From: Promethearchaeota archaeon | Lineage (GTDB): Archaea > Asgardarchaeota > Lokiarchaeia > Sigyniarchaeales > SOKP01 | NCBI GenBank assembly: GCA_048939015.1 | Contig: JBHLPW010000074.1 | Coordinates: 1 to 21,190 of the forward strand | Direction of reading: 5' to 3' | DNA: 21,190 bases | Shown here: positions 6,671 through 21,132 of the stretch, one piece after another | Layout: each line of letters begins with the position of its first letter | How positions within the stretch are numbered: the stretch's first letter is position 1 | Notes under the pieces: generated by a model | What the model was told of the DNA's origin: nothing | The model's database searches: none | Seen by the model: only the letters and a program-made list of their open reading frames with translations | Translations under genes and position numbers: made by a program

Positions 6671-7945
6671 ATGTTAAGTGCTCTAAAAAAATTATTTGAT
6701 GATATCGATCTCTCATGGATTGATTCTTTAAAAAATATAGATAAATCAGATGAATTTAATAAACTCTTACTAATATTTCCAAATTTAAAGAAAATTTTTC
6801 AAGAAGCAAGAGAGAGAAATAAAGATGAATTTCAGAGAACCATTAGGCATATTTTTAGAGCATTTAAAATATTCAATTTAATGATTAATGGAAATTTCTC
6901 GCACAAAACTCTTTCTCCTGCATCAATAAAAATAATTCAGGAAAAAGTTTTCAATCTACAATCTCAAAACGAGTTAATAATCCCAATACTCTTAATGTAT
7001 CACGATATTGGTAGGTATATTGATAATAAAAAACATCCTTATCATAGTTATCATCTTGTTTCAAAAATGGATTTACTCGATCTTTTTGAGCTTTCTGATG
7101 TCGATAAATTGCTTATTCATGAAATAATTCATTACCACTTGCTTATCGCGACCATCTACACTGGAGAATCTACTTTTTATGGGATTTATTCATTATTTAG
7201 TGATCCCGAATTTAATAAACTCCTTAGTTATTATAACGCTTTGAATAGATTCGTTGATTTATTAGAAGTTTTCACCTATATTGATATTCTAGGTTACTAT
7301 TACACAAAAATATTCGACCACTATATTAAATATTATGAAGAAATTAATTCAAAATTAAAAGATATTTTAAAATTGTGGCCAGATAAAGACAAAGCTCTAA
7401 TATTAGCCAAGAAATATTCAGATGAATGGCTTGAATGGAGGCTTGCGGGTGCTCTTAGAATATTTCAGTTTGTTGAAACAAAGCCTTATTTAACTAAAGA
7501 GTTTTATTACGCAAAACTGGCAGATAGCATAAAGCATACTGATATTCAAACCTTCGAGAATCTTAATTGGGATTCATTAAAAGATCAATATTTAATTCAT
7601 TCTTATAAAATCCAAATGCGATATTCTTTAGCTCTGTTAATGGTTTTGGCATTTGGAAGTTTTCAAAGAATGGGATTAAAGATTAATGAAGGAATCTCAT
7701 ACAAATTACTTTTATTTTGGAAGATTCTTTCAAAAGAAGTGAAACTAAGATCTAAAGAGAATGATAAATCTATATGGAATATATTTTTAGAAGGGATGCC
7801 TCATTGGTCAAAAATAGATATATCATTTATTAAATTATTAAGTGATACTATGATTGAGTCCTTAATCCGAAATTCTAAAGTTGAGTACGATATTGAACAA
7901 GAAGAATATAATTTATATCTAAACGTTGAGCAAGTTTTTAAGTAA
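6671..7945 (+). CDS. Hypothetical protein with GlnD-like HD metal-dependent phosphohydrolase domain
   Basis: RTIRH...LLMYHDIGR....HPYHS...IIHYHLLI...FTYIDILG follows the H...HD...H...H...D spacing of HD domains. Starts 3 bp after the PLP gene. Confidence 0.6.
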   Translation: MLSALKKLFDDIDLSWIDSLKNIDKSDEFNKLLLIFPNLKKIFQEARERNKDEFQRTIRHIFRAFKIFNLMINGNFSHKTLSPASIKIIQEKVFNLQSQNELIIPILLMYHDIGRYIDNKKHPYHSYHLVSKMDLLDLFELSDVDKLLIHEIIHYHLLIATIYTGESTFYGIYSLFSDPEFNKLLSYYNALNRFVDLLEVFTYIDILGYYYTKIFDHYIKYYEEINSKLKDILKLWPDKDKALILAKKYSDEWLEWRLAGALRIFQFVETKPYLTKEFYYAKLADSIKHTDIQTFENLNWDSLKDQYLIHSYKIQMRYSLALLMVLAFGSFQRMGLKINEGISYKLLLFWKILSKEVKLRSKENDKSIWNIFLEGMPHWSKIDISFIKLLSDTMIESLIRNSKVEYDIEQEEYNLYLNVEQVFK

Positions 7946-7980: not shown

Positions 7981-8322
7981 TTATTTATAGTCCTCCCTCG
8001 TTGGACTAAAAACTTCTATTACTTCAGTATTTTCGAGTAATTCAGCACCATGCTTTTCATTTGAATTGAATACATAACTATCTCCTTCATTTGCAATAAA
8101 TTCTCTTGTTTCTGTGATAAATTTTATTTTCCCTTTTAACACATATCCTATTTGATGGTTTTCATGTTCATGAAGTGGCACTATAGCATCCTTTTCTAAA
8201 TTAAAAAAGCATAACATTACATCATTATTAAAAGCTAAAGTTCTTCTGTATATACCCTCAAGAGCCTTAACCTTTTCAACATCCTGTTTATTAATTGGAC
8301 CTTTAATCATAAATCTATTCAC
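7981..8322 (-). CDS. Cupin domain protein, KdgF-like
   Basis: GIYRRTLAFNNDVML, PLHEHENHQIGYV..G, GDSY....NEKHGA, VFSPTREDY. Start is GTG 8322 or ATG 8310. Confidence 0.88.
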   Translation of the reverse strand: MNRFMIKGPINKQDVEKVKALEGIYRRTLAFNNDVMLCFFNLEKDAIVPLHEHENHQIGYVLKGKIKFITETREFIANEGDSYVFNSNEKHGAELLENTEVIEVFSPTREDYK

Positions 8323-8450
8323 TTTCTTTTTGTATTATTTGGAATATTTTTACTCTTTAATAAATTTGTTTAGAAAACTATTTTTTTGATAATTAAGATA
8401 GTGAAGTAAATGATATTTTTAATTGAAATTATTATGAATATTAATTTGGC

Positions 8451-8470
8451 TTTTACCAAAATTGTTAAAA
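8451..8470. promoter_or_regulatory. Imperfect palindrome TTTTACCAA-AA-TTGTTAAAA, candidate transcription-factor site
   Basis: 9-bp arms with one mismatch; identical copy at 12194-12213; both begin 173 bp before the start codon. Confidence 0.55.
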
Positions 8471-8568
8471 ATTTCAATTATTTTTCAAAATTCTAAATAA
8501 TTTTTTAATAGATTTTCATATACCTTTCATCTTATAAAATTTTAAAAGAAAAGAGTTTGAGAATTAAA

Positions 8569-8576
8569 TTTAAATA
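8569..8576 (+). promoter_or_regulatory. Archaeal TATA box (TTTAAATA) of surface protein gene A
   Basis: Lies in the block AAATTTAAATAAGATCAAATC shared by both paralog promoters, 55 bp before the start codon. Confidence 0.6.
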
Positions 8577-8623
8577 AGATCAAATCCTCTTGAACTTTAA
8601 CACCTTTTTTTGGGGTTATTTAT

Positions 8624-11600
8624 TTGTATAAGAAAATAAAAAATAAGAAAATTAGAATTATCTTTGGAGTAATTCTGTTAATTACGCTGAATTTAGCATC
8701 TGTTCCTTCCTTTCTAACACCTATTAATAAAGAGATTAAGGAACTCAAAGAAATAAGAAGCGCAGGAGTCTATTATGATATCGAAATTAATGATCTTCCT
8801 AGTAGTCCAACAAATTGGTCTTGGGCTGCTACTCAACCTTGGTTTAAAGGCGGTTCTGGTACACCCGTAGATCCCTATAGAATCGAAGATGAGACTTTCA
8901 TGTATAGCTCAGGAGCAGGCGAATGCCTCAGAATTTTTCACTCAAATAAGCACTTTATCATTAGAAATTGTACTTTTACAAATTCGTTTCCTTCTTTAGC
9001 AGGCCTTTATTTTGTAAATGTTACTAACGGACAATTTCTGGAGAATAATGTAGTATTCAATGGATATGGATTAGTTTGCGATAATGTTAGTAATACAATT
9101 ATTTCAAACAATGATTTCTCCTATTATTCAGATTATGGAATTTGGCTTATTGACAATTGTGATAATAATGTCATAACTGGAAATACAGTTAATGGACATG
9201 GTGGAGATTATGGAATAGCACTAGATTTAGATGCTGATAATAATCTGATTTATAATAATATTATTAAAAATCATGGAGTAGATAATGCTTATGATGATGG
9301 TTTTAATAATGATTGGAATAATACTGGGATTGGGAATTATTGGGATGATTACCCTGGTTATGATATGGATCTAAACGGAATTGGTGACATACCATATAGT
9401 ATTCCTGGAAGTGCTGGAGCTTTCGATTATTTACCAATATGGAATATTCAAACTCCAATCGCAATTGATGATCTTCCTGGTAGCCCAACAAATTGGTTAT
9501 GGGCTCAAACTCAACCATGGTTTGGAGGAGGATCTGGGACTTCGGGAGATCCTTATATTCTTGAGAATTTTAATATAGATGGTGGTGGTACAACTAATTG
9601 TATAACAGTCCTAAATTCTAATAAGCATTTCATTATTCGGGATTCTCACCTTTATAATTCTGGAGGATCTCCACCTGCAAGTTTAGTGCTATGGAATGTC
9701 ACTAATTCTCAAATTATTGGAAATAATGTAAGTAGCAGCACAAATATGGGTATTTTGCTATTTCTTTGTGATTACAATGTAATTTCAGGAAATACAGGAA
9801 ATCTTAATCAAATAGGATTAATATTATACGGAAGTAACCATAGTACAGTTACTGAAAATACATTCAACAATAATTTAATGGTCGGAATGATTGCTTATTA
9901 TAGTTCCCATAATGATATAATCGGGAATACGATTAATAACAATATAGCAAATGGAACTAGTGTTATTGAGAGTGATAATAACATAATTTTCGGAAATTCT
10001 ATAGAGAACAATGATATTGGTGTTTTCCTCAGTTCTGGAAGCAATAATAATCTTTTTTATGAAAATTATTTTAGAAATAGTGGAACAAACCATGCTTTTG
10101 ACAATGGTGTAAATAATGATTGGAACAATACACTCATAGGAAATTATTGGGATGATTATACCGGATATGATATGGATTTGGATGGCATTGGAGACACTCC
10201 TTATGACGTTCCTCCACCTGGAGGGAGCCAAGATTATATGCCGATATGGAATTTACAAGGACCGATCGCAATTGATGATCTTCCTAGTAGTATGAATAAT
10301 TGGGCATGGGCAGTAAGTCAAGTGTGGTGTAGTGGTTCTGGAACGGAGTTAGATCCATATATCATAGAGGATTTAATCATAGATGGTAAACTTGCTGATA
10401 TTTGCATCGAAATATCTAATTCTGATGCCCACTTTATAATTCGAGGTTGTAGTCTTAATAACACGCCTAGTGGTGCAACTGACGCTGGTATTTATTTGAA
10501 TAATGTGACTAATGGAGTTATTATAGACAATACTTTTTATAATCACAGAAATGCGTGTATATTTGGAATTATGAGCCACAATAATACTATATCGGATAAT
10601 TCCTTTGATTTTTTCCAACATGGAATATACTTATATGGGTCTTCCAACGAGTTATTAGATAACAATATTTATGGAGATTTATCAGGTACTGGTATAGTAT
10701 TAGAGGGGAGTTATTATTATAATCATATAACTGGAAATACAATAGAGAATTGTTACCAAGGAATTTTAATTTTATCTCCAAATAATAATACAATTTCAGG
10801 AAATAATGCGTTTGGAAATACTATGAATGGTATAGGTTTTTCTGACAGTGATTTCAATTATATTTCAGATAACACATTTCATGATAATGGATTACACGGG
10901 ATCCTTATGATAGCTGGGAGTAATGATAACACGATTGAAAATACAATGGTATATGATAATTTTCAAAATGGAATAGACCTTGAGAGTTGTTCTAATAATA
11001 TTATTAATGATAATATTATTCTTGACAACATTAATAACGGAATTGATTTAGATGGAACATCCAATAATAATCTAATATATGGGAATTTCTTCAGTGGTAA
11101 TGGAATACACGCTTTTGATGATGGCTCGAATAATGATTGGAATACTACGATTATTGGCAATTATTGGGCTAATTGGACTAGTCCAGATTCAGAACCTGAT
11201 GGAATTGTGGACATTCCATACACTTTCATTAAAGGTACGGCTAATAGTATAGATTACCTACCGATTGCTGAAGATGGACCACCATCTATAACTATCAATT
11301 CTCCTTCAACGAATGATGTTTTTGGGACTAGCGCCCCTGGATTTAGTGTCACTATTACAGACGATTTTCTTGATGAAACTTGGTATACTATTGATGGAGG
11401 ACTTCATAATTTTACGTTTACGGGATCTACTGGAACTATTGATCAGTCTGCATGGGACACTGCTTCAGATGGAGCGATCACATTGACATTCTATGCATCA
11501 GATCATGCAGATAATATCGGGTCTGCAACTGTTAATATCGAAAGAGATACTCAAGCGCCTAATATCACAATTACTTCTCCAAGTACAGATGATACCTTTG

Positions 11601-11935
11601 TAGGAGCCCCGAGTTTCGTTGTCGAAATTACAGATGATAATTTAGATTCAATGTGGTATTCCCTTGATGGTGGAATAACCACTTTCACATTTGACACTAA
11701 TGGTACTATCGATTCCTCCGCATGGGCAGCTTTAGCCACGGGTTCTGTTACCATTACATTCTATGCTAATGATACTGCAGGAAATCTTACCTCAGAAAGT
11801 GTAAATGTAATAAAAGTCCCTCCAGCTTCGGGAGATATGACTATTATTATCATAATAGTGGTTTCTGCGGTTACTGGAGCAGCTGTTGTTACTATAATCA
11901 TAATACTTAGAAAGCGAAAAGCAGGAGAAGAATAA
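8624..11935 (+). CDS. Membrane-anchored surface glycoprotein A: three NosD/CASH-type right-handed beta-helix modules, two Ig-like domains, C-terminal TM helix
   Basis: Basic/hydrophobic N-terminal signal; 3x [DLP...NW.WA..Q.W..GSGT..DPY.IE cap, (GI.L..S.NN.I.GN)n coils, GNYW...D.DGI.D.PY...DY.PI]; two P.ITI.SP...WY..DGG...ITFYA.D domains; TM helix then RKRK; many N-x-S/T sequons. TTG start aligns with the ATG of paralog B. Confidence 0.92.
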   Translation: MYKKIKNKKIRIIFGVILLITLNLASVPSFLTPINKEIKELKEIRSAGVYYDIEINDLPSSPTNWSWAATQPWFKGGSGTPVDPYRIEDETFMYSSGAGECLRIFHSNKHFIIRNCTFTNSFPSLAGLYFVNVTNGQFLENNVVFNGYGLVCDNVSNTIISNNDFSYYSDYGIWLIDNCDNNVITGNTVNGHGGDYGIALDLDADNNLIYNNIIKNHGVDNAYDDGFNNDWNNTGIGNYWDDYPGYDMDLNGIGDIPYSIPGSAGAFDYLPIWNIQTPIAIDDLPGSPTNWLWAQTQPWFGGGSGTSGDPYILENFNIDGGGTTNCITVLNSNKHFIIRDSHLYNSGGSPPASLVLWNVTNSQIIGNNVSSSTNMGILLFLCDYNVISGNTGNLNQIGLILYGSNHSTVTENTFNNNLMVGMIAYYSSHNDIIGNTINNNIANGTSVIESDNNIIFGNSIENNDIGVFLSSGSNNNLFYENYFRNSGTNHAFDNGVNNDWNNTLIGNYWDDYTGYDMDLDGIGDTPYDVPPPGGSQDYMPIWNLQGPIAIDDLPSSMNNWAWAVSQVWCSGSGTELDPYIIEDLIIDGKLADICIEISNSDAHFIIRGCSLNNTPSGATDAGIYLNNVTNGVIIDNTFYNHRNACIFGIMSHNNTISDNSFDFFQHGIYLYGSSNELLDNNIYGDLSGTGIVLEGSYYYNHITGNTIENCYQGILILSPNNNTISGNNAFGNTMNGIGFSDSDFNYISDNTFHDNGLHGILMIAGSNDNTIENTMVYDNFQNGIDLESCSNNIINDNIILDNINNGIDLDGTSNNNLIYGNFFSGNGIHAFDDGSNNDWNTTIIGNYWANWTSPDSEPDGIVDIPYTFIKGTANSIDYLPIAEDGPPSITINSPSTNDVFGTSAPGFSVTITDDFLDETWYTIDGGLHNFTFTGSTGTIDQSAWDTASDGAITLTFYASDHADNIGSATVNIERDTQAPNITITSPSTDDTFVGAPSFVVEITDDNLDSMWYSLDGGITTFTFDTNGTIDSSAWAALATGSVTITFYANDTAGNLTSESVNVIKVPPASGDMTIIIIIVVSAVTGAAVVTIIIILRKRKAGEE
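11563..11754 (+). repeat. 192-bp perfect direct repeat, copy 1 (second Ig-like domain)
   Basis: Base-by-base identical to 15303-15494; only 2 mismatches over 11563-11840 vs 15303-15580. Confidence 0.93.
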
Positions 11936-11943
11936 TAAATTTA

Positions 11944-11957
11944 TTTTTTTTTTTTTT
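11944..11957 (+). terminator. Oligo-T (T14) terminator of gene A
   Basis: TAATAAATTTA then T14; same context after gene B. Confidence 0.65.
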
Positions 11958-12193
11958 AATTTCTTAAGATGTTAGCAATAACTTATCTTTAGAATCTTTT
12001 TTTGAGAGATTTCAAAAATCACTTATGAGTATTTAGATCCTTTACTTATTGTTTTATTTAGAAATCATATCTTGTCTATGTAAAAATCTCTATAACTTTC
12101 CCATTTTCGATTATCTAGAACACTACTTTTTCAGACAAAAATAATTAGTTATATGAAATTTTTAATTAACTTAACTAAGAACATAAAACTGCT

Positions 12194-12213
12194 TTTTACC
12201 AAAATTGTTAAAA
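12194..12213. promoter_or_regulatory. Second copy of the TTTTACCAA-AA-TTGTTAAAA palindrome
   Basis: Identical to 8451-8470 at offset 3743, the same offset as the two start codons. Confidence 0.55.
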
Positions 12214-12311
12214 ATTTTCCTTTTATTATTAGATTCAAAACAATTCTTCAATAGATTTTCATAACTCTTTTATCTTATAAAATTTTTAACGAAATTGATT
12301 TGGGAAATAAA

Positions 12312-12319
12312 TTTAAATA
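12312..12319 (+). promoter_or_regulatory. Archaeal TATA box (TTTAAATA) of surface protein gene B
   Basis: Offset 3743 from 8569; followed by GGTGA, an SD-like motif, at 12355-12359. Confidence 0.6.
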
Positions 12320-12366
12320 AGATCAAATCATCTTAAATTTTAACACCCTTTTTTGGTGAAATTTAT

Positions 12367-15300
12367 ATGTATAAAAAATTAAAAAATAAGAAAATTACAT
12401 TTATCTTTGGAGTAATTCTGTTAATAACACTGAATTTAACAACGATACCCTCGGTTATAACTCCTATGCGCAAGAGTTCTAACGAGATAAATGAATTAAA
12501 AAGCTCTGGAATATATTATGATATTGTAATTGATGATCTTCCTAGTAGCTTAACAAATTGGACTTGGGCTATGACACAACCTTGGTTTGGAGGTGGATCT
12601 GGTACTTCAGGAGATCCATACCGTATCGAAAACCATATTTTTGAATATAATACTGGATCAGGACTTCCTTTCGGTATTATTAATTCAAGAAAATATTTCA
12701 TTATAAACAATTGTACCTTTAGAAATTCAGCCTCTGGTAATGTTGCACTCTTATTATCCAATGTCACCAATGGACAAATTCTAAATAGTTATATTTATAA
12801 TAGTGGTGTTGATGGGATAAATGTAGATGACACTAATGAAATACTCATTTCAAATAATGAGATATACGATAATGCTTGGAGTGGGATATATATGCATGGT
12901 GTTAGTGAAAATAATACCATAATAGGAAATCTTTTTTATAATAATGGATGGTATGGAACAGAAATATATTCTAATAATAATCTTTTTTATGATAATTACT
13001 TTGTAAATCCAATTAGTGGTCATGCTTTTGATACTGGTACTAATGATTGGAACAATACGGTCATCGGAAATTATTGGAGTGATTATACAGGATACGATAT
13101 GGATTTAGATGGTATCGGAGATACACCCTACGATGTTCCTCCAGGAGGAGGAAGCCAAGATTATTTACCAATATGGAATATTCAAACTCCAATTGCAATA
13201 AATGATCTTCCTAGTAGTCCAACAAATTGGTTATGGGCTCAAACTCAACCTTGGTTTGGAGGAGGATCTGGTACTTCCGGAGATCCTTATATTCTTGAGA
13301 ATTTCAAGATAGATGGTGGTGGTACAAGTAGCGGAATAATTGTTGAGAATTCTGATAAGCATTTCATTATTCGGGACTCTAACCTTTATAATTCAGGGGG
13401 AGCCTTTAATGGCGGTATCGCTCTTAATAACGTCACAAATGCACAAATCATAGGTAATAACGCAAGCAGCAATACAATTATTGGAATATTTTTAATGCTG
13501 TGTGATTATATTACAATTTCAGGAAATATAGGGATTCTCAATCAATTTGGTATAGTATTATGGGGATCTAACCATACCACGATTTCTGGAAATACTTTTA
13601 ACACCAATTCGATGGATGGAATTTATCTTTTGATGAGTGCCCTTAATAGTATTATCGGGAATACCATGAGTAATAATGTTGCAAATGGAACTTATTTACT
13701 TCAAAGTGACTTTAACACCATTTCAGGAAACACTATTAATAATAATGATATTGGACTTGGTCTCGATTCTGGAAGTAATGACAATCTTTGTTATGAAAAC
13801 TATTTTAGAAATAGTGGAACAGACCATGCTTTTGACAATGGTGTAAATAATGATTGGAACAATACACTCATTGGAAATTATTGGGATGATTATACCGGAT
13901 ATGATATGGACTTCGATGGCATCGGAGATACTCCACATGACGTTCCTCCCCCTGGAGGGAGTCAAGATTATTTACCTATATGGAACTTACAAGGACCGAT
14001 ATCAATTGATGATCTTCCTAGCAGTATGAATAATTGGGCATGGGCTGTAAGCCAAGCATGGTGCAGTGGTTCTGGAACAGTTGGAGATCCCTATATTATT
14101 GAGAATCTTAATATCGATAGCAAGAATACGGCAAATTGTATTGAAATATTAAACTCTAGAGCCTTTTTTGAAATTAGGAATTGTGAGTGTTATAGTCAAC
14201 CTATAGGAAGCTCATACAATGGAGTCTATTTAGAAAATGTTACAAATGGAGCGCTTTTAAATAACGATATCCATAATAACTATCAAGGAATGCATTTGGT
14301 TGATGTAAATTACACAAATATTATCAACAATGATATTTATAATAGTGCTTGGTATGGAATGTTTGTAGAGGATTGTAATCATTTACAGATTTCTTTAAAT
14401 AATTTCTCTGATAATGCTTATCGTGCCATTCGAGTGGATAGATCCAATTACAATACGATATCAAATAATTATATTTACAACACGATAAACTATGACAGCA
14501 TCCTTCTCTATACTAATTCTAATTTTAATTCAGTATTAGATAATATTATTGATACGACGGGTGATGTTGGAATTCGTCTTTTATCATTATGCAATAATAA
14601 CACGGTCTCTGGCAATGAAATAATGAATAGTAATGACCATGGAATATCTGTGGAAGGCAGTAATTTCAATATTCTTTGGGGAAATATAATACATGATAAT
14701 GATGATGATGGAATAAGAGTAACAAGTAGTGATGATAACACTTTTTATGAAAATGTTATCCGTGATAATATTGTTCATGGAATCTATTTAGATGGGACAT
14801 CTGAGAGGAATTTGTTTTACAGAAATTTCCTTGGTGGTAATACAATACATGCTTTTGATGATGGTTCGAATAACGATTGGAACACTACAATTATTGGTAA
14901 TTATTGGGATAATTGGACGAGTCCAGATTCAGAACCTGATGGAATTGTAGATGCTCCATATACTTACATTAAAGGTTCGGCGAATAGTATCGATTATCTA
15001 CCGATTGCTGAAGATGGACCACCATCTATAACTATTAATTCTCCTTCAACGGATGATGTTTTTGGGGCTAGTGCTCCTGGATTTAGTGTCACTATTACAG
15101 ACGATTTTCTAAATGAAACCTGGTATACGATTGATGGAGGACTTCATAACTTTACTTTTACGGGATCTACTGGAACTATTGATCAATCTGCATGGGACGC
15201 TGCTTCTGATGGAGCGATCACATTGACATTCTATGCATTAGACTATGCTGAAAATATCGGTTCTGCAGTAGTTAATATAGAAAAAGATACTCAAGAACCT

Positions 15301-15675
15301 AGTATCACAATTACTTCTCCAAGTACAGATGATACCTTTGTAGGAGCCCCGAGTTTCGTTGTCGAAATTACAGATGATAATTTAGATTCAATGTGGTATT
15401 CCCTTGATGGTGGAATAACCACTTTCACATTTGACACTAATGGTACTATCGATTCCTCCGCATGGGCAGCTTTAGCCACGGGTTCTGTTACCATCACATT
15501 CTATGCTAATGATACTGCAGGAAATCTTGCCTCAGAAAGTGTAAATGTAATAAAAGTCCCTCCAGCTTCGGGAGATATGATCATCATTATCATAATAATA
15601 GTTTCTGCAGTTGCTGGAGCAGCTGTTGTTACTATAATCATAATACTCAGAAAGCGAAAAGCAGGAGAAGAATAA
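12367..15675 (+). CDS. Membrane-anchored surface glycoprotein B, paralog of 8624-11935 (three beta-helix modules, two Ig-like domains, TM helix)
   Basis: Same architecture and nearly the same length (1102 vs 1103 aa); near-identical linkers and C-terminus; divergent beta-helix cores. Confidence 0.92.
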   Translation: MYKKLKNKKITFIFGVILLITLNLTTIPSVITPMRKSSNEINELKSSGIYYDIVIDDLPSSLTNWTWAMTQPWFGGGSGTSGDPYRIENHIFEYNTGSGLPFGIINSRKYFIINNCTFRNSASGNVALLLSNVTNGQILNSYIYNSGVDGINVDDTNEILISNNEIYDNAWSGIYMHGVSENNTIIGNLFYNNGWYGTEIYSNNNLFYDNYFVNPISGHAFDTGTNDWNNTVIGNYWSDYTGYDMDLDGIGDTPYDVPPGGGSQDYLPIWNIQTPIAINDLPSSPTNWLWAQTQPWFGGGSGTSGDPYILENFKIDGGGTSSGIIVENSDKHFIIRDSNLYNSGGAFNGGIALNNVTNAQIIGNNASSNTIIGIFLMLCDYITISGNIGILNQFGIVLWGSNHTTISGNTFNTNSMDGIYLLMSALNSIIGNTMSNNVANGTYLLQSDFNTISGNTINNNDIGLGLDSGSNDNLCYENYFRNSGTDHAFDNGVNNDWNNTLIGNYWDDYTGYDMDFDGIGDTPHDVPPPGGSQDYLPIWNLQGPISIDDLPSSMNNWAWAVSQAWCSGSGTVGDPYIIENLNIDSKNTANCIEILNSRAFFEIRNCECYSQPIGSSYNGVYLENVTNGALLNNDIHNNYQGMHLVDVNYTNIINNDIYNSAWYGMFVEDCNHLQISLNNFSDNAYRAIRVDRSNYNTISNNYIYNTINYDSILLYTNSNFNSVLDNIIDTTGDVGIRLLSLCNNNTVSGNEIMNSNDHGISVEGSNFNILWGNIIHDNDDDGIRVTSSDDNTFYENVIRDNIVHGIYLDGTSERNLFYRNFLGGNTIHAFDDGSNNDWNTTIIGNYWDNWTSPDSEPDGIVDAPYTYIKGSANSIDYLPIAEDGPPSITINSPSTDDVFGASAPGFSVTITDDFLNETWYTIDGGLHNFTFTGSTGTIDQSAWDAASDGAITLTFYALDYAENIGSAVVNIEKDTQEPSITITSPSTDDTFVGAPSFVVEITDDNLDSMWYSLDGGITTFTFDTNGTIDSSAWAALATGSVTITFYANDTAGNLASESVNVIKVPPASGDMIIIIIIIVSAVAGAAVVTIIIILRKRKAGEE
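15303..15494 (+). repeat. 192-bp perfect direct repeat, copy 2
   Basis: Identical to 11563-11754. Confidence 0.93.
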
Positions 15676-15683
15676 TAAATTTA

Positions 15684-15693
15684 TTTTTTTTTT
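15684..15693 (+). terminator. Oligo-T (T10) terminator of gene B
   Basis: T10 after the double TAA, in the gap convergent with the AEC gene. Confidence 0.6.
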
Positions 15694-15713
15694 AATTTCT
15701 TTATTTTTTATTT

Positions 15714-18291: not shown

Positions 18292-20190
18292 TTATGGAAT
18301 ATCTATTTTTTGAAAATATAGTGTTGATATAACTAAACAAACTATAGTAATAGTCGATAATATTAAAACAATACCTGTAAGTGTTAACTTTATTGGAGTA
18401 ATAGTGAAACCTAATATCTCACTAAAAGGACCTGTAACTGAACTTAATCCTGCAGTTGAATTGGCAATCCAAATCCTTCCTAATTGTTCATAATAATAAG
18501 AATATGTAAAGAGAAGGGGCCATTCATGCCGAACAAGGAGTGGTAGAAAACTAACCAATGTAGGAACAATCGCAAAAAGTAACATTGGTATGAAAATAGC
18601 TAAACCCATTTTTTTGAACAATGTTGAGCATAAAAACCCTATAGCAAGTAATGGAATTAATGTTATTATGCCTATAAGAAAAATATATCCTCCAATAGAA
18701 AATAAATCATTAAAATATATTTTATCCACATACAATATTCCACTCAGTGCAAATGAAATTGATGAAGGCAACATTATTATAATAACAATAAAAATATAAG
18801 CTAAGAATTTTCCCCAAAGAAACTCCCAACGTCTTACAGGTTTACTAAAGAACCAAGATAATGATCCACTACTCTTTTCTCCGATAATACTCATCGAAGC
18901 AAAAGTAATGGAAAATGCTAATCCAAAATATAAAAAATAAAAAACAAGAAAGATATTTGTTATGTTCCGAATCTGATCAATACTGATACTGCCTAATATT
19001 CGATTTATCATTCTATATATTAAACTTAGTATAATTCCAGGCAGAATTCCAATACCCATAAATACTATAATCTTAAACTTGCTCTTAGCTAATTCATTTT
19101 TGAAAATAATTCCTAAAGAACTAAAATATCCACGGTTTTGTTGATGACGTAATAAAATAATAAAAAGAACTACAATTATTATTAATAAACTAACCCCAAA
19201 TCCAAAAATATTCCATTTGAACGAAGGATATTCAGTTATTTCTATTGTGATTGTGGATGTAAAATTATTTCTAAAACTATCAATACTTACAAGCGAAATG
19301 TTATGAATTCCAGTTGAAGTAAAATTAATGGGTAAACTACCGATATAATTTTTATGGAATCCTGAACCATTTATTTCATATTGAAATTGCCCATCTATTA
19401 AAATTTGGAAAGTGATATTTAGATAACCATCAATTATCGGGCTATCCCATCCTATCCAAGTTAGCTTTACAGATCTTTCAGCGGTTTGATATATTATATT
19501 CTCATCTGATATGCTTAACAAAGCAGGCATTGGGCCTGTAATATAATTTAGTGGTTTTGCTAAATCATTAAGAAATGATACATTTGAATTATTAATATAT
19601 ACTCTAGAAGAAGATAATCCATTTAGACTCACAAAATTTATCAAAGAATTTAAAACCTGAATTTGTCCATCTATTCCAAATTCATTAAGTTGAAAAAATG
19701 AACTATTTGTGATGTTGAGGTTTGCAGAATCAAATTTCCATATAGTAGTCGAGTCAGTTTTACTTGAAAATATACTTAACGAAGAAAAATCACGACATTC
19801 AATATTTTCTTCAATAGTTGAATTATAAACATTTACTACTGAAAGATCTGAAATAATAATATTACCAGTTATGCTTGAATCCTGTTGAATATTTAGAATG
19901 CCTGTATTGAACAGATAAATGCTATCATTAACAGTAGTATTGGTAAGGGTAATATTCGCATGTTCCATTATAAAAATAGTTTCATTGATATATCCATCTT
20001 CAATAAGTATAACATCATAATCATCATATACTAGACTCAAATTTGGAGAATCTTTTGAATGGGCTGGGTGAGATTTGTATAAATCTCGGAAGTGTGAGAT
20101 ATTATGAATTATCAAACAGGATATGGAAAGTGTAATTAATAAAATGATTAGAATAGCATACTTTTTAAATTTATAATTCTCACTTTTCAA
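18292..20190 (-). CDS. ABC-2/NosY-like permease with a large N-terminal extracellular domain
   Basis: C-terminal half has IFKNEL, SIIGEKSSGSL..FFSKPVRRWEFLWGKFLAY and about 6 TM segments. N-terminal ~320 aa has a signal/TM segment, Asn/Ser/Ile beta-repeats, an Ig-like domain and one more TM. TTG start 6 bp after the ATPase stop. Confidence 0.85.
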   Translation of the reverse strand: MKSENYKFKKYAILIILLITLSISCLIIHNISHFRDLYKSHPAHSKDSPNLSLVYDDYDVILIEDGYINETIFIMEHANITLTNTTVNDSIYLFNTGILNIQQDSSITGNIIISDLSVVNVYNSTIEENIECRDFSSLSIFSSKTDSTTIWKFDSANLNITNSSFFQLNEFGIDGQIQVLNSLINFVSLNGLSSSRVYINNSNVSFLNDLAKPLNYITGPMPALLSISDENIIYQTAERSVKLTWIGWDSPIIDGYLNITFQILIDGQFQYEINGSGFHKNYIGSLPINFTSTGIHNISLVSIDSFRNNFTSTITIEITEYPSFKWNIFGFGVSLLIIIVVLFIILLRHQQNRGYFSSLGIIFKNELAKSKFKIIVFMGIGILPGIILSLIYRMINRILGSISIDQIRNITNIFLVFYFLYFGLAFSITFASMSIIGEKSSGSLSWFFSKPVRRWEFLWGKFLAYIFIVIIIMLPSSISFALSGILYVDKIYFNDLFSIGGYIFLIGIITLIPLLAIGFLCSTLFKKMGLAIFIPMLLFAIVPTLVSFLPLLVRHEWPLLFTYSYYYEQLGRIWIANSTAGLSSVTGPFSEILGFTITPIKLTLTGIVLILSTITIVCLVISTLYFQKIDIP

Positions 20191-20196
20191 TTTCTT

Positions 20197-21132
20197 TCAC
20201 ACATTTTTTTTGTCTTTCTCTAGAGCTTTCATAAAAATTTGCTCAATTTCTAATCCAGTTAGACGAAATTCATTAACGACAACATTATTTTTTAATGAAA
20301 TCTGCGCCACAGTATTCCAAACTTGTTCTAAATCATTGGCTTCAATAATTAAAGAATCAGCTTCTTCTTCGATTTTTGAAGCAATTTTTTTAAGAGATTC
20401 ACGAAAAATATCAATATTAGGATTTATTCTAATCCTTTTTGACCCTAATCTTTCATTTAATTCTTGTGTTGAACCCTCCATAATAAGGTTACCTTGGTTA
20501 ATAATACCAATTGAATCTGCACTCATCTTTTGAATCTCTGGCAGTATATGAGTTGAGATTAACATAGTTTTTCCCTCTTGACGCAAATCTTTAAGTAAAT
20601 CGATCATTTGATTTCGACCAAGAGGATCAAGATTTGATGTAATCTCATCAAGTATCAATAATTCGGGATCATTCATTAAAGCTTGAGCAATCCCAATTCT
20701 TTGCTTCATTCCCGCTGAAAATTTAGCAATTTTTCTAGATCTCGCGTCTGTTAATTCAACTAATTTTAATAAATCTGATATACGAGTTTTTATTTCTTGT
20801 TTTGACATCTGAAAAATAGAACCGATATATTTAAGTAATTTTTCCGCTGTCAAATCTAAAAAATATGTTGGATTTTCTGGTACATAACCTATTAGTTTAC
20901 GGATATTAATTTTTTCTTTAGAAGTAATATTTTTTCCAAATATTTCTATTTCTCCAGAAGTTGGAAAAAGTGATCCAATTAGCATTTTTATCGTTGTAGT
21001 CTTTCCAGCTCCATTTGGTCCTAAAAATCCATAAATTCCCTTATCAACTGTTATATTTAATTTATTAACAGCAAGAGTGTTATTATCAAATATCTTAGTT
21101 AACTCAAAAGTCTGAATAATAGGATTTCTCAT
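20197..21132 (-). CDS. ABC transporter ATP-binding protein (ABC-2/CcmA/NosF-like)
   Basis: Walker A GPNGAGKTT, signature FSAGMKQR, Walker B LILDE, H-loop ISTH. Confidence 0.96.
   Translation of the reverse strand: MRNPIIQTFELTKIFDNNTLAVNKLNITVDKGIYGFLGPNGAGKTTTIKMLIGSLFPTSGEIEIFGKNITSKEKINIRKLIGYVPENPTYFLDLTAEKLLKYIGSIFQMSKQEIKTRISDLLKLVELTDARSRKIAKFSAGMKQRIGIAQALMNDPELLILDEITSNLDPLGRNQMIDLLKDLRQEGKTMLISTHILPEIQKMSADSIGIINQGNLIMEGSTQELNERLGSKRIRINPNIDIFRESLKKIASKIEEEADSLIIEANDLEQVWNTVAQISLKNNVVVNEFRLTGLEIEQIFMKALEKDKKNV

What the first reader, a model, noticed from the sequence alone, without database searches (positions are those of the whole stretch)
8624..15675. Candidate variable surface-protein system: hypervariable beta-helix cassettes between near-identical DNA joints in a tandem gene pair
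Seen: each gene is signal + 3 beta-helix cassettes + 2 Ig-like domains + TM. The joints are nearly identical between genes, including third codon positions: 9425-9459 = 13159-13193 (35/35), 9485-9516 = 13219-13250 (32/32), 10089-10176 vs 13823-13910 (87/88), and tail 11563-11840 vs 15303-15580 (276/278). The cores between them are strongly diverged: module 1 (~8890-9280 vs ~12640-12970) and module 3 (~10370-11040 vs ~14110-14790) differ in coil number and are hard to align, while module 2 is collinear but heavily substituted. Total length stays 1103 vs 1102 aa. Protein-level selection alone does not explain synonymous identity next to such divergent cores. Known: constant-frame/variable-cassette designs diversified by gene conversion occur in Borrelia vlsE, Neisseria pilE/pilS, Anaplasma msp2 and lamprey VLRs. 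Inference: the joints act as homology arms for swapping beta-helix cassettes, giving a combinatorial repertoire of adhesins or receptors for partner recognition or virus evasion. I know of no description of this in Asgard archaea, but cannot search.
Basis: partly seen in the sequence, partly recalled or inferred. Interest (0 to 1): 0.85.

Follow-up and report, generated by a model that had tools for sequence, protein, structure and literature searches.

The report
Recombining mosaic surface-protein gene pair
Two neighbouring genes of an Asgard (Lokiarchaeia-like) archaeon encode membrane-anchored surface proteins whose three beta-helix "head" modules have separate ancestries, while the junctions and stalk have been copied between the two genes; this shows that recombination shuffles the modules over evolutionary time, but not that it works as an on-demand variation system.

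Summary
Genes A (8624-11935) and B (12367-15675) have the stated architecture, and every quoted identity is exact. Synonymous divergence runs from about 0 in the tail to saturation in cores 1 and 3.

Two points are overstated. Synonymous identity at the joints is moderate (0.82 of codons against about 0.5 by chance). The C-cap of module 1 is at chance.

Recombination is strongly supported:
- In the cores, A groups with its syntenic ortholog.
- B core 1 groups with genes of other genomes.
- B core 3 groups with core 2 of another species' ortholog (84% nt), with switch points in the caps.
- In the caps, stalk and anchor, A and B are each other's closest relatives.
- AU tests reject the alternative groupings.
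- The same locus carries five different module combinations in five genomes.
- Family-wide there are 43 architectures among 63 multi-module proteins.

A programmed vlsE/pilS-like system is not supported:
- There is no archive of silent cassettes.
- Both genes have their own promoter.
- No other gene in the genome shares 85% or more DNA identity with them.
- No population data could be obtained.

Verdict: gene conversion plus cassette shuffling in an Asgard surface-protein family. It is a new variant of a known kind. This scan's unchecked notes report similar tandem pairs in other genomes.

The parts
8371..8623 (+). Promoter/leader region of gene A. It is duplicated upstream of B, and a TATA-like AAATTTAAATAAGATCAA block is conserved in orthologous loci.
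   Evidence: 77% identity to 12116-12366. Alignment with the upstream regions of A4 and O8.
8624..11935 (+). Gene A: signal/TM leader, three NosD-type beta-helix modules, two Ig-like domains, C-terminal TM anchor (1103 aa).
8780..9439 (+). A module 1: N-cap 8780-8881, core 1 8882-9280 (type T2), C-cap 9281-9439.
   Evidence: Cap HMMs. The nearest relative of the core is the ortholog A4 (68% aa), against 38% to B.
9428..9659 (+). Joint 1 tract where A is closest to B: end of C1, 6-residue linker, N-cap 2 and the start of core 2.
   Evidence: HMM segmentation of informative sites. Exact tracts of 35 and 32 bp. Codon identity 0.82 against 0.46 expected.
9560..10087 (+). A core 2 (type T7, 176 aa). 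It is collinear with B core 2 at 64% aa, and closer to the ortholog A4 (76%).
10051..10227 (+). Joint 2 tract where A is closest to B (C-cap 2).
   Evidence: Exact tracts of 49 and 38 bp. Codon identity 0.83 against 0.55 expected.
10364..11104 (+). A core 3 (type T1, 247 aa). It groups with A4 core 3 and is unrelated at cassette level to B core 3 (37% aa).
11105..11932 (+). Constant part of A: terminal-type C-cap 3, Ig-like 1 (11267-11545), Ig-like 2 (11546-11830) and the TM anchor. It is homogenised with B.
   Evidence: A and B are sisters here (support 100/99), and A+A4 without B is rejected (AU p 0.004). pS is 0.13.
11563..11754 (+). Most recent conversion tract: 192 bp identical to 15303-15494.
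   Evidence: 88 of 89 synonymous codons are identical in Ig2.
11936..12366 (+). Intergenic duplication junction: a copy of the T-rich terminator (11943-11965, matching 15679-15701), about 150 nt of unique sequence, then a copy of the promoter (12116-12366).
12367..15675 (+). Gene B: the same architecture as A (1102 aa).
12625..13017 (+). B core 1 (subtype T2b). Its nearest relatives lie in other genomes: the syntenic gene of G046 (73% aa), G018 (62%) and P0005 (59%).
   Evidence: (A+B clade rejected, AU p 9e-4).
13294..13821 (+). B core 2 (type T7).
14030..14790 (+). B cassette 3 (N-cap 3 end plus core 3, type T11). It is 84% nt / 77% aa identical to module 2 of the G005 ortholog, and is flanked by A-like caps.
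   Evidence: The clade (B core 3, O8 core 2) has support 100/100, and A core 3 + B core 3 as one clade is rejected at p 4e-73.
14845..15672 (+). Constant part of B: C-cap 3, two Ig-like domains and the TM anchor.

Best explanation
A and B are a tandem pair, each with its own promoter and terminator. They encode type-I membrane-anchored surface proteins of a Lokiarchaeia-like Asgard archaeon.

Each protein displays three right-handed beta-helix (NosD/CASH-like) head modules on a stalk of two Ig-like domains. Every module has three parts: a conserved N-cap (DLP..NW.WA..Q.W..GSGT..DPY), a variable core, and a conserved C-cap (NDWN..IGNYW.DY.GYDMD.DGIGD.PY...DYLPI). Modules are joined by a 6-residue linker.

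The mosaic divergence is the product of homologous recombination acting on a duplicated backbone, in three steps:
(1) A unit of about 3.74 kb, promoter included, was duplicated in tandem.
(2) Cores 1 and 3 of the two copies belong to different cassette lineages, with exchange points inside the cap-coding joints. The sister of B core 3 sits at position 2 in another species' ortholog, so cassettes move between positions and between genomes.
(3) Later gene conversion between A and B homogenised the leader, N-cap 2, C-cap 2, C-cap 3, the stalk and the anchor. The latest tract is at least 192 bp.

Conserved caps give the short identical stretches (20-50 bp) that recombination needs, so they act in effect as homology arms.

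Shown: the mosaic, the incongruent trees, the cassette relocation, and the locus-level and family-level shuffling.

Inferred: that the outcome is adaptive diversification of an exposed ligand-, glycan- or partner-binding head on a constant stalk. The time scale looks evolutionary (between populations and species), not a programmed switch within a clone.
For: Architecture.

Heterogeneous dS.

Codon-level test against codon-usage expectation.

Three-sequence mosaic of A, B and A4: 338 AB sites against 489 AA4 sites, strongly clustered, runs test z = -8.0. Segmentation puts the A~B tracts at 8632-8812, 9428-9659, 10051-10227, 11005-11476 and 11566-11917.

Nearest neighbours by segment:
- A's cores are closest to A4.
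- B core 1 is closest to P5, and to G046 at 73% aa.
- B core 3 is closest to O8 core 2.
- N2, C2, C3 and the tail are closest between A and B.

Trees and AU tests.

Extent of the out-of-register B~O8 block: about 14,030-14,790.

Caps follow position, not core. O8's C-cap 2 is of the internal type (75-79% to A2/B1/B2, 56% to B3). T1 cores carry terminal-type caps 18 times and internal-type caps 9 times.

The same syntenic locus holds five module combinations in five genomes:
- [T2][T7][T1] plus [T2b][T7][T11] in this genome
- [T2][T7][T1]
- [T2][T11][T1]
- [T2][T1][T1]
- [T2b][435-aa core]

Family-wide there are 43 architectures among 63 multi-module proteins.

The low cap pS is specific to the within-genome pair: A-B 0.26-0.28, against 0.39-0.63 for the same caps between genomes.

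Out-of-register identical tracts of 31, 21, 21 and 20 bp are present.
Against: - No reads or strain-resolved data could be obtained, so neither the assembly of the repeats nor ongoing exchange is verified.
- Only ten genes with DNA were compared in detail, and kin are not independent.
- Cap segments are short (33-54 codons), so their individual trees are weak.
- Conversion is only detectable where sequences remain alignable, which biases apparent breakpoints toward conserved caps. One breakpoint lies about 100 nt inside core 2 and another about 100 nt inside core 3. A and A4 also show a switch in the middle of core 3, so exchange is not confined to joints.
- Core 2 also has above-chance codon identity (0.69), so part of the 'joint' signal may simply be a younger contiguous block from N2 to N3.
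- Other tandem clusters of the family show no recent homogenisation: tails are 66-75% identical.
- Function as an adhesin or receptor is inferred from fold and topology only.
Confidence: 0.8

Rival explanations
1. Programmed, high-frequency variation system. The joints are dedicated recombination sites through which cassettes are swapped within a clonal population to change the displayed head, as in vlsE, pilE/pilS, msp2 or tprK.
For: Constant frame with variable cores. Identical tracts of 32-49 bp in the joints and 192 bp in the tail. Out-of-register identical tracts. A cassette found at two different positions.
Against: - There is no silent or truncated cassette archive. All 32 cap-bearing ORFs are full-length genes.
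- Both A and B have their own promoter.
- No other locus shares 85% or more DNA identity with A or B.
- The nearest relatives of B's cores are in other genomes, not this one.
- The cores of A and B have not been exchanged recently: dS is saturated there.
- No recombinase, reverse transcriptase or special cis element lies in the window.
- The genome is 95% complete and fragmented, so an unassembled archive cannot be fully excluded.
Confidence: 0.07
2. No recombination. The pattern reflects only uneven constraint: caps and stalk are under strong purifying selection and codon bias, while cores are free or positively selected after a single duplication.
For: The caps are the folding-critical ends of beta-helices and are conserved family-wide. 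Codon bias gives about 0.5 chance codon identity. C1 is at chance although its protein sequence is conserved (66% aa between A and B).
Against: - Topology changes along the gene. A+B is rejected in core 1 (p 9e-4) and core 3 (p 4e-73), while A+A4 is rejected in the 3' part (p 0.004).
- B core 3 is 84% nt identical to a module at another position in another species.
- Ig2 has 88 of 89 identical synonymous codons, while Ig1 next to it has 68 of 82.
- Cap pS is low only within the genome, not between genomes.
Confidence: 0.03
3. Assembly artefact. The tandem arrangement or the identical tracts arise from mis-joining or collapsing strain variants in a metagenome-assembled genome (contamination estimate 6.5%).
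For: The contig comes from a MAG. The perfect tracts are of read or k-mer size. Reads could not be examined.
Against: - The A-B spacer has the structure expected of a real tandem duplication: a copy of the terminator, 150 nt of unique sequence, then a copy of the promoter at 77% identity.
- Identity decays gradually around the perfect tract, at 88-94% on either side.
- B's divergent cores have independent relatives in other genomes.
- Synteny on both flanks matches four other genomes.
Confidence: 0.05

Closest known systems
Helicobacter pylori babA/babB (and sabA/sabB) outer-membrane adhesin paralogs (from my own knowledge, not checked in papers here)
   Same: Full-length, separately promoted paralogs. 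The 5' and 3' ends are near-identical and the ligand-binding middle is divergent. Gene conversion between the copies makes chimeras.
   Different: Those are bacterial outer-membrane proteins at dispersed loci, with one variable block and conversion observed experimentally. Here there is an archaeal tandem pair with three separately bounded beta-helix cassettes. Exchange is inferred only from phylogeny, and cassettes also move between positions.
Borrelia vlsE, Neisseria pilE/pilS, Anaplasma msp2 and Treponema tprK cassette systems
   Same: Constant frame, variable cassettes, conserved flanks used for gene conversion.
   Different: Those systems have one expression site plus arrays of silent partial donor cassettes, and they switch at high frequency. 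No silent archive exists here, both genes have promoters, and no switching has been observed.
Plasmodium falciparum var (PfEMP1) domain-cassette shuffling (from my own knowledge)
   Same: A large family of full-length surface-protein genes. Modular heads recombine at conserved homology blocks, giving many architectures on a conserved anchor.
   Different: That family is eukaryotic, with subtelomeric ectopic recombination and mutually exclusive expression. Here an archaeal family has beta-helix modules, and only one pair per genome is similar enough for present-day exchange.
NosD, and the non-canonical NosD-like beta-helix proteins of sediment microbes and their viruses (PMC13452462)
   Same: A Pfam NosD/Beta_helix fold. 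Foldseek matches NosD 7osf/7o0y. The proposed role is adhesion or glycan interaction rather than copper delivery.
   Different: Canonical NosD is a single periplasmic beta-helix docked on NosY in a nos cluster. Here three helices in series sit on an Ig-like stalk with their own TM anchor, and no nos genes are adjacent.
Azotobacter AlgE mannuronan C-5 epimerases (A-module/R-module family; AlgE6 A-module 5lw3 is a Foldseek hit)
   Same: Beta-helix modules repeated in varying number and order among paralogs.
   Different: Those are secreted bacterial enzymes with known catalysis. No catalytic residues were tested here, and no cap-joint conversion pattern is known to me in that family.

Membership tests
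Right-handed parallel beta-helix (NosD/CASH, Pfam PF05048/PF13229) surface proteins | Sequence match to the NosD / Beta_helix profiles above the curated cut-off | tested here: met
   PF05048 E 1.5e-71 (A) and 2.3e-72 (B); PF13229 about 2.5e-50; four stretches each.
Right-handed parallel beta-helix (NosD/CASH, Pfam PF05048/PF13229) surface proteins | Beta-helix fold | tested here: met
   The AF2 model (pLDDT 89.3) has three stacks of short strands. Foldseek hits include PL6 lyases, tailspikes, AlgE6, AlgG and NosD.
Right-handed parallel beta-helix (NosD/CASH, Pfam PF05048/PF13229) surface proteins | Surface display: signal sequence and membrane anchor | tested here: inconclusive
   The N-terminal hydrophobic helix (residues 2-22) and a C-terminal hydrophobic run followed by RKRKAGEE are visible in the sequence and the model. 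No dedicated signal-peptide or TM predictor was available.
Canonical NosD (N2O-reductase maturation, NosDFY) | Single beta-helix encoded in a nos cluster with nosZ, nosF and nosY | tested here: not met
   The gene has three helices plus an Ig stalk plus a TM anchor. Its neighbours are a cupin, Mem_trans and MFS. An ABC-2 permease and an ATPase lie 2.6 kb downstream, beyond two other genes.
Canonical NosD (N2O-reductase maturation, NosDFY) | Presence of nosZ in the genome | tested here: inconclusive
   PF18764 found nothing in G000, but it also rang in none of the 14 control genomes.
Canonical NosD (N2O-reductase maturation, NosDFY) | Conserved His-Met-Met copper-shuttling motif and NosY-docking elements (as described in PMC13452462) | not tested
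   No residue-level alignment to 7osf was made.
Programmed cassette-type antigenic variation (vlsE, pilE/pilS, msp2, tprK) | One expression site plus an archive of silent, promoterless partial cassettes | tested here: not met
   Six-frame cap-HMM scan of the 4.86-Mb genome: 32 ORFs, all long genes with the first N-cap near the N-terminus. Both A and B have promoter copies. The genome is 94.9% complete.
Programmed cassette-type antigenic variation (vlsE, pilE/pilS, msp2, tprK) | Donor sequences in the same genome sharing near-identical flanks with the expression site | tested here: not met
   Apart from A and B themselves, no family member shares 85% or more DNA identity over 80 bp or more.
Programmed cassette-type antigenic variation (vlsE, pilE/pilS, msp2, tprK) | Variants arising at high frequency within a population | not testable with these tools
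The metagenome scans gave no strain variants.
Concerted evolution / ectopic gene conversion between paralogous surface-protein genes (babA/babB type) | Two or more full-length paralogs with homogenised ends and a divergent middle | tested here: met
Concerted evolution / ectopic gene conversion between paralogous surface-protein genes (babA/babB type) | Phylogenetic incongruence: paralogs are sisters in converted segments, orthologs are sisters elsewhere | tested here: met
   Trees and AU tests; nearest-neighbour table.
Concerted evolution / ectopic gene conversion between paralogous surface-protein genes (babA/babB type) | Sharp-edged tracts of identity exceeding local background | tested here: met
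   A 192-bp perfect tract within a region that is otherwise 88-94% identical. Ig2 has 88 of 89 identical synonymous codons against 68 of 82 in Ig1.

The most novel reading that the evidence does not exclude
The cap-coding joints are not merely conserved for folding. They also serve as standard adapters that let Lokiarchaeia populations, and even sister species, trade beta-helix head cassettes in any position. This would give these S-layer-less Asgard cells a combinatorial repertoire of surface recognition modules, used for partner (syntroph) recognition or virus evasion. The pS of 0.35 between B core 3 and the other species' core 2, below the 0.53-0.61 of flanking orthologs, hints at exchange after speciation.
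Probability: 0.25. Interest if true: 0.8.

Novelty: new variant of a known kind. Interest (0 to 1): 0.58.

Why it matters
Cultured Lokiarchaeia lack an ordered S-layer and instead carry many complex surface proteins, which are thought to mediate the cell-cell contacts relevant to syntrophy and eukaryogenesis (PMC9834061).

This locus shows how one abundant class of those proteins evolves. NosD-like beta-helix proteins give 17-56 matches per genome in the 18 other genomes of this genus sampled and in this genome itself. Discrete head modules are exchanged between genes, positions and genomes at conserved cap junctions. A constant stalk and anchor is kept uniform by gene conversion.

This has three practical consequences:
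- It gives a concrete, testable model for surface diversification in Asgard archaea.
- It marks which parts of the protein are likely ligand-specific (the cores) and which are scaffold (caps and stalk).
- It warns annotators that 'NosD' labels and orthology calls for these genes are unreliable.

I found no description of this in the searched literature.

Tried and rejected
Read-level checks of the assembly, of expression and of cassette polymorphism were therefore impossible, and read laying was not used.
- Exact-pattern scans of metagenome contigs gave no strain variants. The joint-2 pattern gave no hits. The Ig2-tail pattern gave one 1.3-kb contig from an A4-like relative at 82-83% identity, which is uninformative.
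- A search for a silent cassette archive found none.
- A search for other homogenised tandem pairs covered G008:C226, G005:C56 and G000:C46. Tails are only 66-75% identical. The gene next to the G018 homolog is unrelated, and the G004:C86 stretch gave no cap-bearing ORF of 450 aa or more.
- A genus-wide search for T11, T7 and B1-type cores found very few carriers: 1, 1 and 3 other genomes out of 53. The comparison set is therefore small.
- The nosZ check was inconclusive, because the control genomes did not ring either.
- Inverted repeats or shufflon-like sites: only three weak AT-rich pairs, judged to be chance.
- Rejected: the pure selection/codon-bias explanation (AU tests).
- Rejected: 'differ in coil number' (core lengths differ by only 2 aa).
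- Literature searches found no prior description.

Full report
**What is there.** The window is the whole 21.19-kb contig C83 of a 4.86-Mb, 125-contig genome. Names on homologous proteins place it among Promethearchaeota/Lokiarchaeota-type Asgard archaea.

Two co-oriented ORFs, A (8624-11935, 1103 aa) and B (12367-15675, 1102 aa), are 65% identical overall. Pfam finds NosD (E 1e-71) and Beta_helix (E 1e-50) repeatedly in both, plus sub-threshold bacterial Ig-like hits.

An AlphaFold model of A, built on 69 homologs (mean pLDDT 89.3), shows these elements in order:
- an N-terminal helix,
- three separate beta-helices,
- two beta-sandwich domains,
- a low-confidence hydrophobic C-terminus ending in RKRKAGEE.

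Foldseek matches the helices to PL6 alginate lyases, phage tailspikes, AlgE6/AlgG epimerases and NosD. It matches the sandwiches to SiiE, CbhA and RbmA-type adhesin domains.

Each beta-helix is bounded by a conserved N-cap (DLP..NW.WA..GSGT..DPY, containing a short helix) and a conserved, mostly irregular C-cap (NDWN..GNYW.DY.GYDMD.DGIGD.PY..DYLPI). A 6-residue linker joins neighbouring modules.

**Check of the observation.** All four quoted identities are exact. The longest perfect tracts are 192 bp in the second Ig-like domain and 51, 49, 45, 38, 38, 35 and 32 bp elsewhere.

Sliding NG86 estimates give dS of about 0 at 11563-11760 and 0.14-0.3 in the best parts of the joints. Values are saturated in cores 1 and 3.

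This genome is AT-rich and codon-biased, so I measured how often amino-acid-identical codons are also the same codon. The chance expectation from these genes' own usage is 0.40-0.56.

| Segment | Codon identity |
|---|---|
| Core 1 | 0.59 |
| C-cap 1 | 0.56 |
| Core 3 | 0.52 |
| Core 2 | 0.69 |
| N-cap 2 | 0.82 |
| C-cap 2 | 0.83 |
| N-cap 3 | 0.70 |
| C-cap 3 | 0.72 |
| Ig1 | 0.83 |
| Ig2 | 0.99 |
| TM | 0.90 |

Core 1, C-cap 1 and core 3 sit at chance; the rest are above it. The heterogeneity is real, but only the tail is truly near-identical. One joint half (C1) is not young at all.

Core lengths differ by just two residues in modules 1 and 3. 'Different coil number' is therefore not supported. 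These cores are hard to align because they are different cassette lineages.

**The duplication.** The 431-bp spacer between A and B has three parts:
- a copy of the T-rich terminator that follows B,
- about 150 nt of unique sequence,
- a 77%-identical copy of the 250 bp upstream of A.

The promoter copy includes a TATA-like block that is also conserved upstream of the orthologs in two other genomes. Both genes therefore have their own promoter. The unit that duplicated was about 3.74 kb.

**Outgroups.** Searches of relatives and of the large protein collection gave close homologs, whose DNA I fetched.

Four other genomes carry a single gene at the same syntenic position. The upstream genes are enoyl-CoA hydratase, alcohol dehydrogenase, sulfatase, a PALP enzyme and an unannotated ~427-aa protein. 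The downstream genes are Mem_trans and/or MFS transporters.

I cut all proteins at the caps with two small HMMs and clustered the cores. The locus then reads as follows:

| Genome / gene | Module combination |
|---|---|
| This genome, gene A | [T2][T7][T1] |
| This genome, gene B | [T2b][T7][T11] |
| A4 (P0004) | [T2][T7][T1] |
| G005 (O8) | [T2][T11][T1] |
| P0007 | [T2][T1][T1] |
| G046 | [T2b][435-residue core] |

That is five genomes with five combinations.

A second synteny group, with a nitroreductase gene upstream, carries [T2][T12][T1], [T2][T3][T1] and [T2b][T1][T1].

Among the 63 multi-module proteins of the 120 best homologs there are 43 different architectures. Core types T0, T1, T3 and T11 occur at more than one position.

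**Incongruent histories.** Nearest neighbours by segment are as follows:
- A core 1, core 2 and core 3 are closest to the ortholog A4 (68%, 76% and 54% aa).
- B core 1 is closest to P0005 (59%). In the genus search it is closest to the syntenic G046 gene (73%).
- B core 3 is closest to core 2 of the G005 ortholog (77% aa, 84% nt), against 37% aa to A core 3.
- In N-cap 2, C-cap 2, C-cap 3, the stalk and the anchor, A and B are each other's closest relatives.

Maximum-likelihood trees agree. AU tests give three results:
- They reject an A+B clade in core 1 (p 9e-4).
- They reject an A+B clade among the large cores (p 4e-73).
- They reject A+A4 to the exclusion of B in the 3' part (p 0.004).

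In the three-way alignment of A, B and A4, sites supporting A+B and sites supporting A+A4 are strongly clustered (runs test z = -8.0).

A two-state segmentation places the A~B tracts at five places:
- 8632-8812: leader to N-cap 1,
- 9428-9659: joint 1,
- 10051-10227: joint 2,
- 11005-11476: end of core 3, C-cap 3 and Ig1,
- 11566-11917: Ig2 and anchor.

Cap pS is low only within this genome: 0.26-0.28 for A-B, against 0.39-0.63 for the same caps between genomes. The cause is therefore gene conversion within the genome, not selection on the DNA sequence of caps in general.

**Cassette relocation.** B was aligned to the G005 ortholog one module out of register. It is 80-96% identical from about 14,030 (inside N-cap 3) to about 14,790 (the start of C-cap 3). 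Outside these points it is A-like instead.

The C-cap that follows this core is of the internal type in G005 and of the terminal type in B. Across the family, T1 cores carry terminal-type C-caps 18 times and internal-type 9 times, according to position. Caps stay with the position while cores move.

Short out-of-register perfect matches exist between caps of A and B: 31, 21, 21 and 20 bp. B's C-cap 1 is closest to the position-2 C-caps.

**What is not there.**
- A six-frame scan of the whole genome with the cap HMMs finds 32 ORFs. All are long genes with the first N-cap 47-92 residues from the ORF start, or further inside very long proteins. There are no promoterless cassette arrays.
- Apart from A and B, no family member shares 85% or more DNA identity over 80 bp or more.
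- The closest relatives of B's foreign cores are in other genomes.
- No recombinase, reverse transcriptase or unusual repeat lies in the window.
- Three other tandem clusters of the family have tails only 66-75% identical. Recent homogenisation is therefore special to this pair among those I tested.
- Two unchecked notes of this scan report similar pairs in other genomes.

Reads could not be obtained, and metagenome scans gave no strain variants. Within-population switching and the assembly of the repeats therefore remain untested.

**Interpretation.** The best-supported reading has three parts: a duplicated backbone, core cassettes of separate ancestry exchanged at the caps, and later A-B gene conversion centred on the caps and the stalk.

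The caps are conserved because beta-helix ends need capping; this rests on established knowledge of the fold. That conservation supplies the short identical stretches on which homologous recombination can act. But the evidence is for exchange between lineages over evolutionary time, not for a dedicated switching device.

Breakpoints are not strictly confined to caps. One lies about 100 nt inside core 2 and one about 100 nt inside core 3. A and A4 also change from 80-90% to about 50% identity in the middle of core 3.

A weak hint of exchange after speciation comes from pS. It is 0.35 between B core 3 and the G005 core 2, but 0.53-0.61 in two flanking orthologous genes. Stronger codon bias in the surface genes could also explain this.

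**Function.** Topology and fold indicate a surface-exposed head of three carbohydrate-binding or carbohydrate-processing type beta-helices on an Ig-like stalk. This is not a canonical NosD: it has three helices, its own anchor and no adjacent nos genes. The nosZ genome search was inconclusive.

A role in adhesion, or in glycan or partner recognition, is an inference. It is in line with what has been proposed for non-canonical NosD-like proteins of sediment communities (PMC13452462) and with the 'complex surface proteins' seen on Lokiarchaeum cells (PMC9834061).

**Novelty.** Gene conversion and module shuffling in surface-protein families are well known in bacteria and parasites. I found no description for Asgard archaea or for cap-bounded beta-helix cassettes in the searchable literature. 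I rate it a new variant of a known kind, of moderate to good interest.

Noticed in passing
window 7981-8322 (-); L020:9643-9972; L017:1561-1890: The small cupin gene lies upstream of the surface gene in this genome and in the A4 genome, but downstream of it in the P0007 locus. The surface gene therefore sits on different sides of the cupin gene in related genomes, which suggests that the surface gene (or the cupin gene) has been re-inserted or locally rearranged.
   Followed up: no
window 10301-10940 vs L017 (A4 gene): A and its ortholog A4 are 80-90% nt identical in the first half of core 3 and only 48-59% identical in the second half. This is a breakpoint in the middle of a core, so exchange is not restricted to whole cassettes.
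   Followed up: partly
P0005, P0006, P0010 and window genes A/B: The number of Ig-like stalk domains varies among close homologs: 1 in P0010, 2 in A and B, about 4 in P0006 and about 6 in P0005. P0005 also has an extra N-terminal region of about 250 residues. Stalk length is a second variable feature.
   Followed up: no
window 18292-20190 (-) and 20197-21132 (-): A 632-aa protein has an ABC-2 permease domain only in its C-terminal 250 residues (the N-terminal 380 residues are unassigned by Pfam). It is followed by an ABC ATPase.
   Followed up: partly
window 6671-7945 (+): A 424-aa protein has no Pfam match. It is conserved (70-81% aa) and syntenic directly upstream of the surface-protein slot in four related genomes.
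   Followed up: partly
window 8440-8623 and 12190-12366: The upstream regions of A and B share islands of identity, including 24 bp at 8451-8474 = 12194-12217 and 22 bp at 8565-8586 = 12308-12329. This is beyond the TATA-like block that is also conserved in other genomes, and it may mark shared regulatory sites.
   Followed up: no
G000 contig C46 (L031:3397-18152): A cluster of three co-oriented family members (1104, 751 and 831 aa). Only their 3' ~850-950 bp (stalk and anchor) align at DNA level, at 72-75% identity. The design is the same variable head on a conserved stalk, but without recent conversion.
   Followed up: partly
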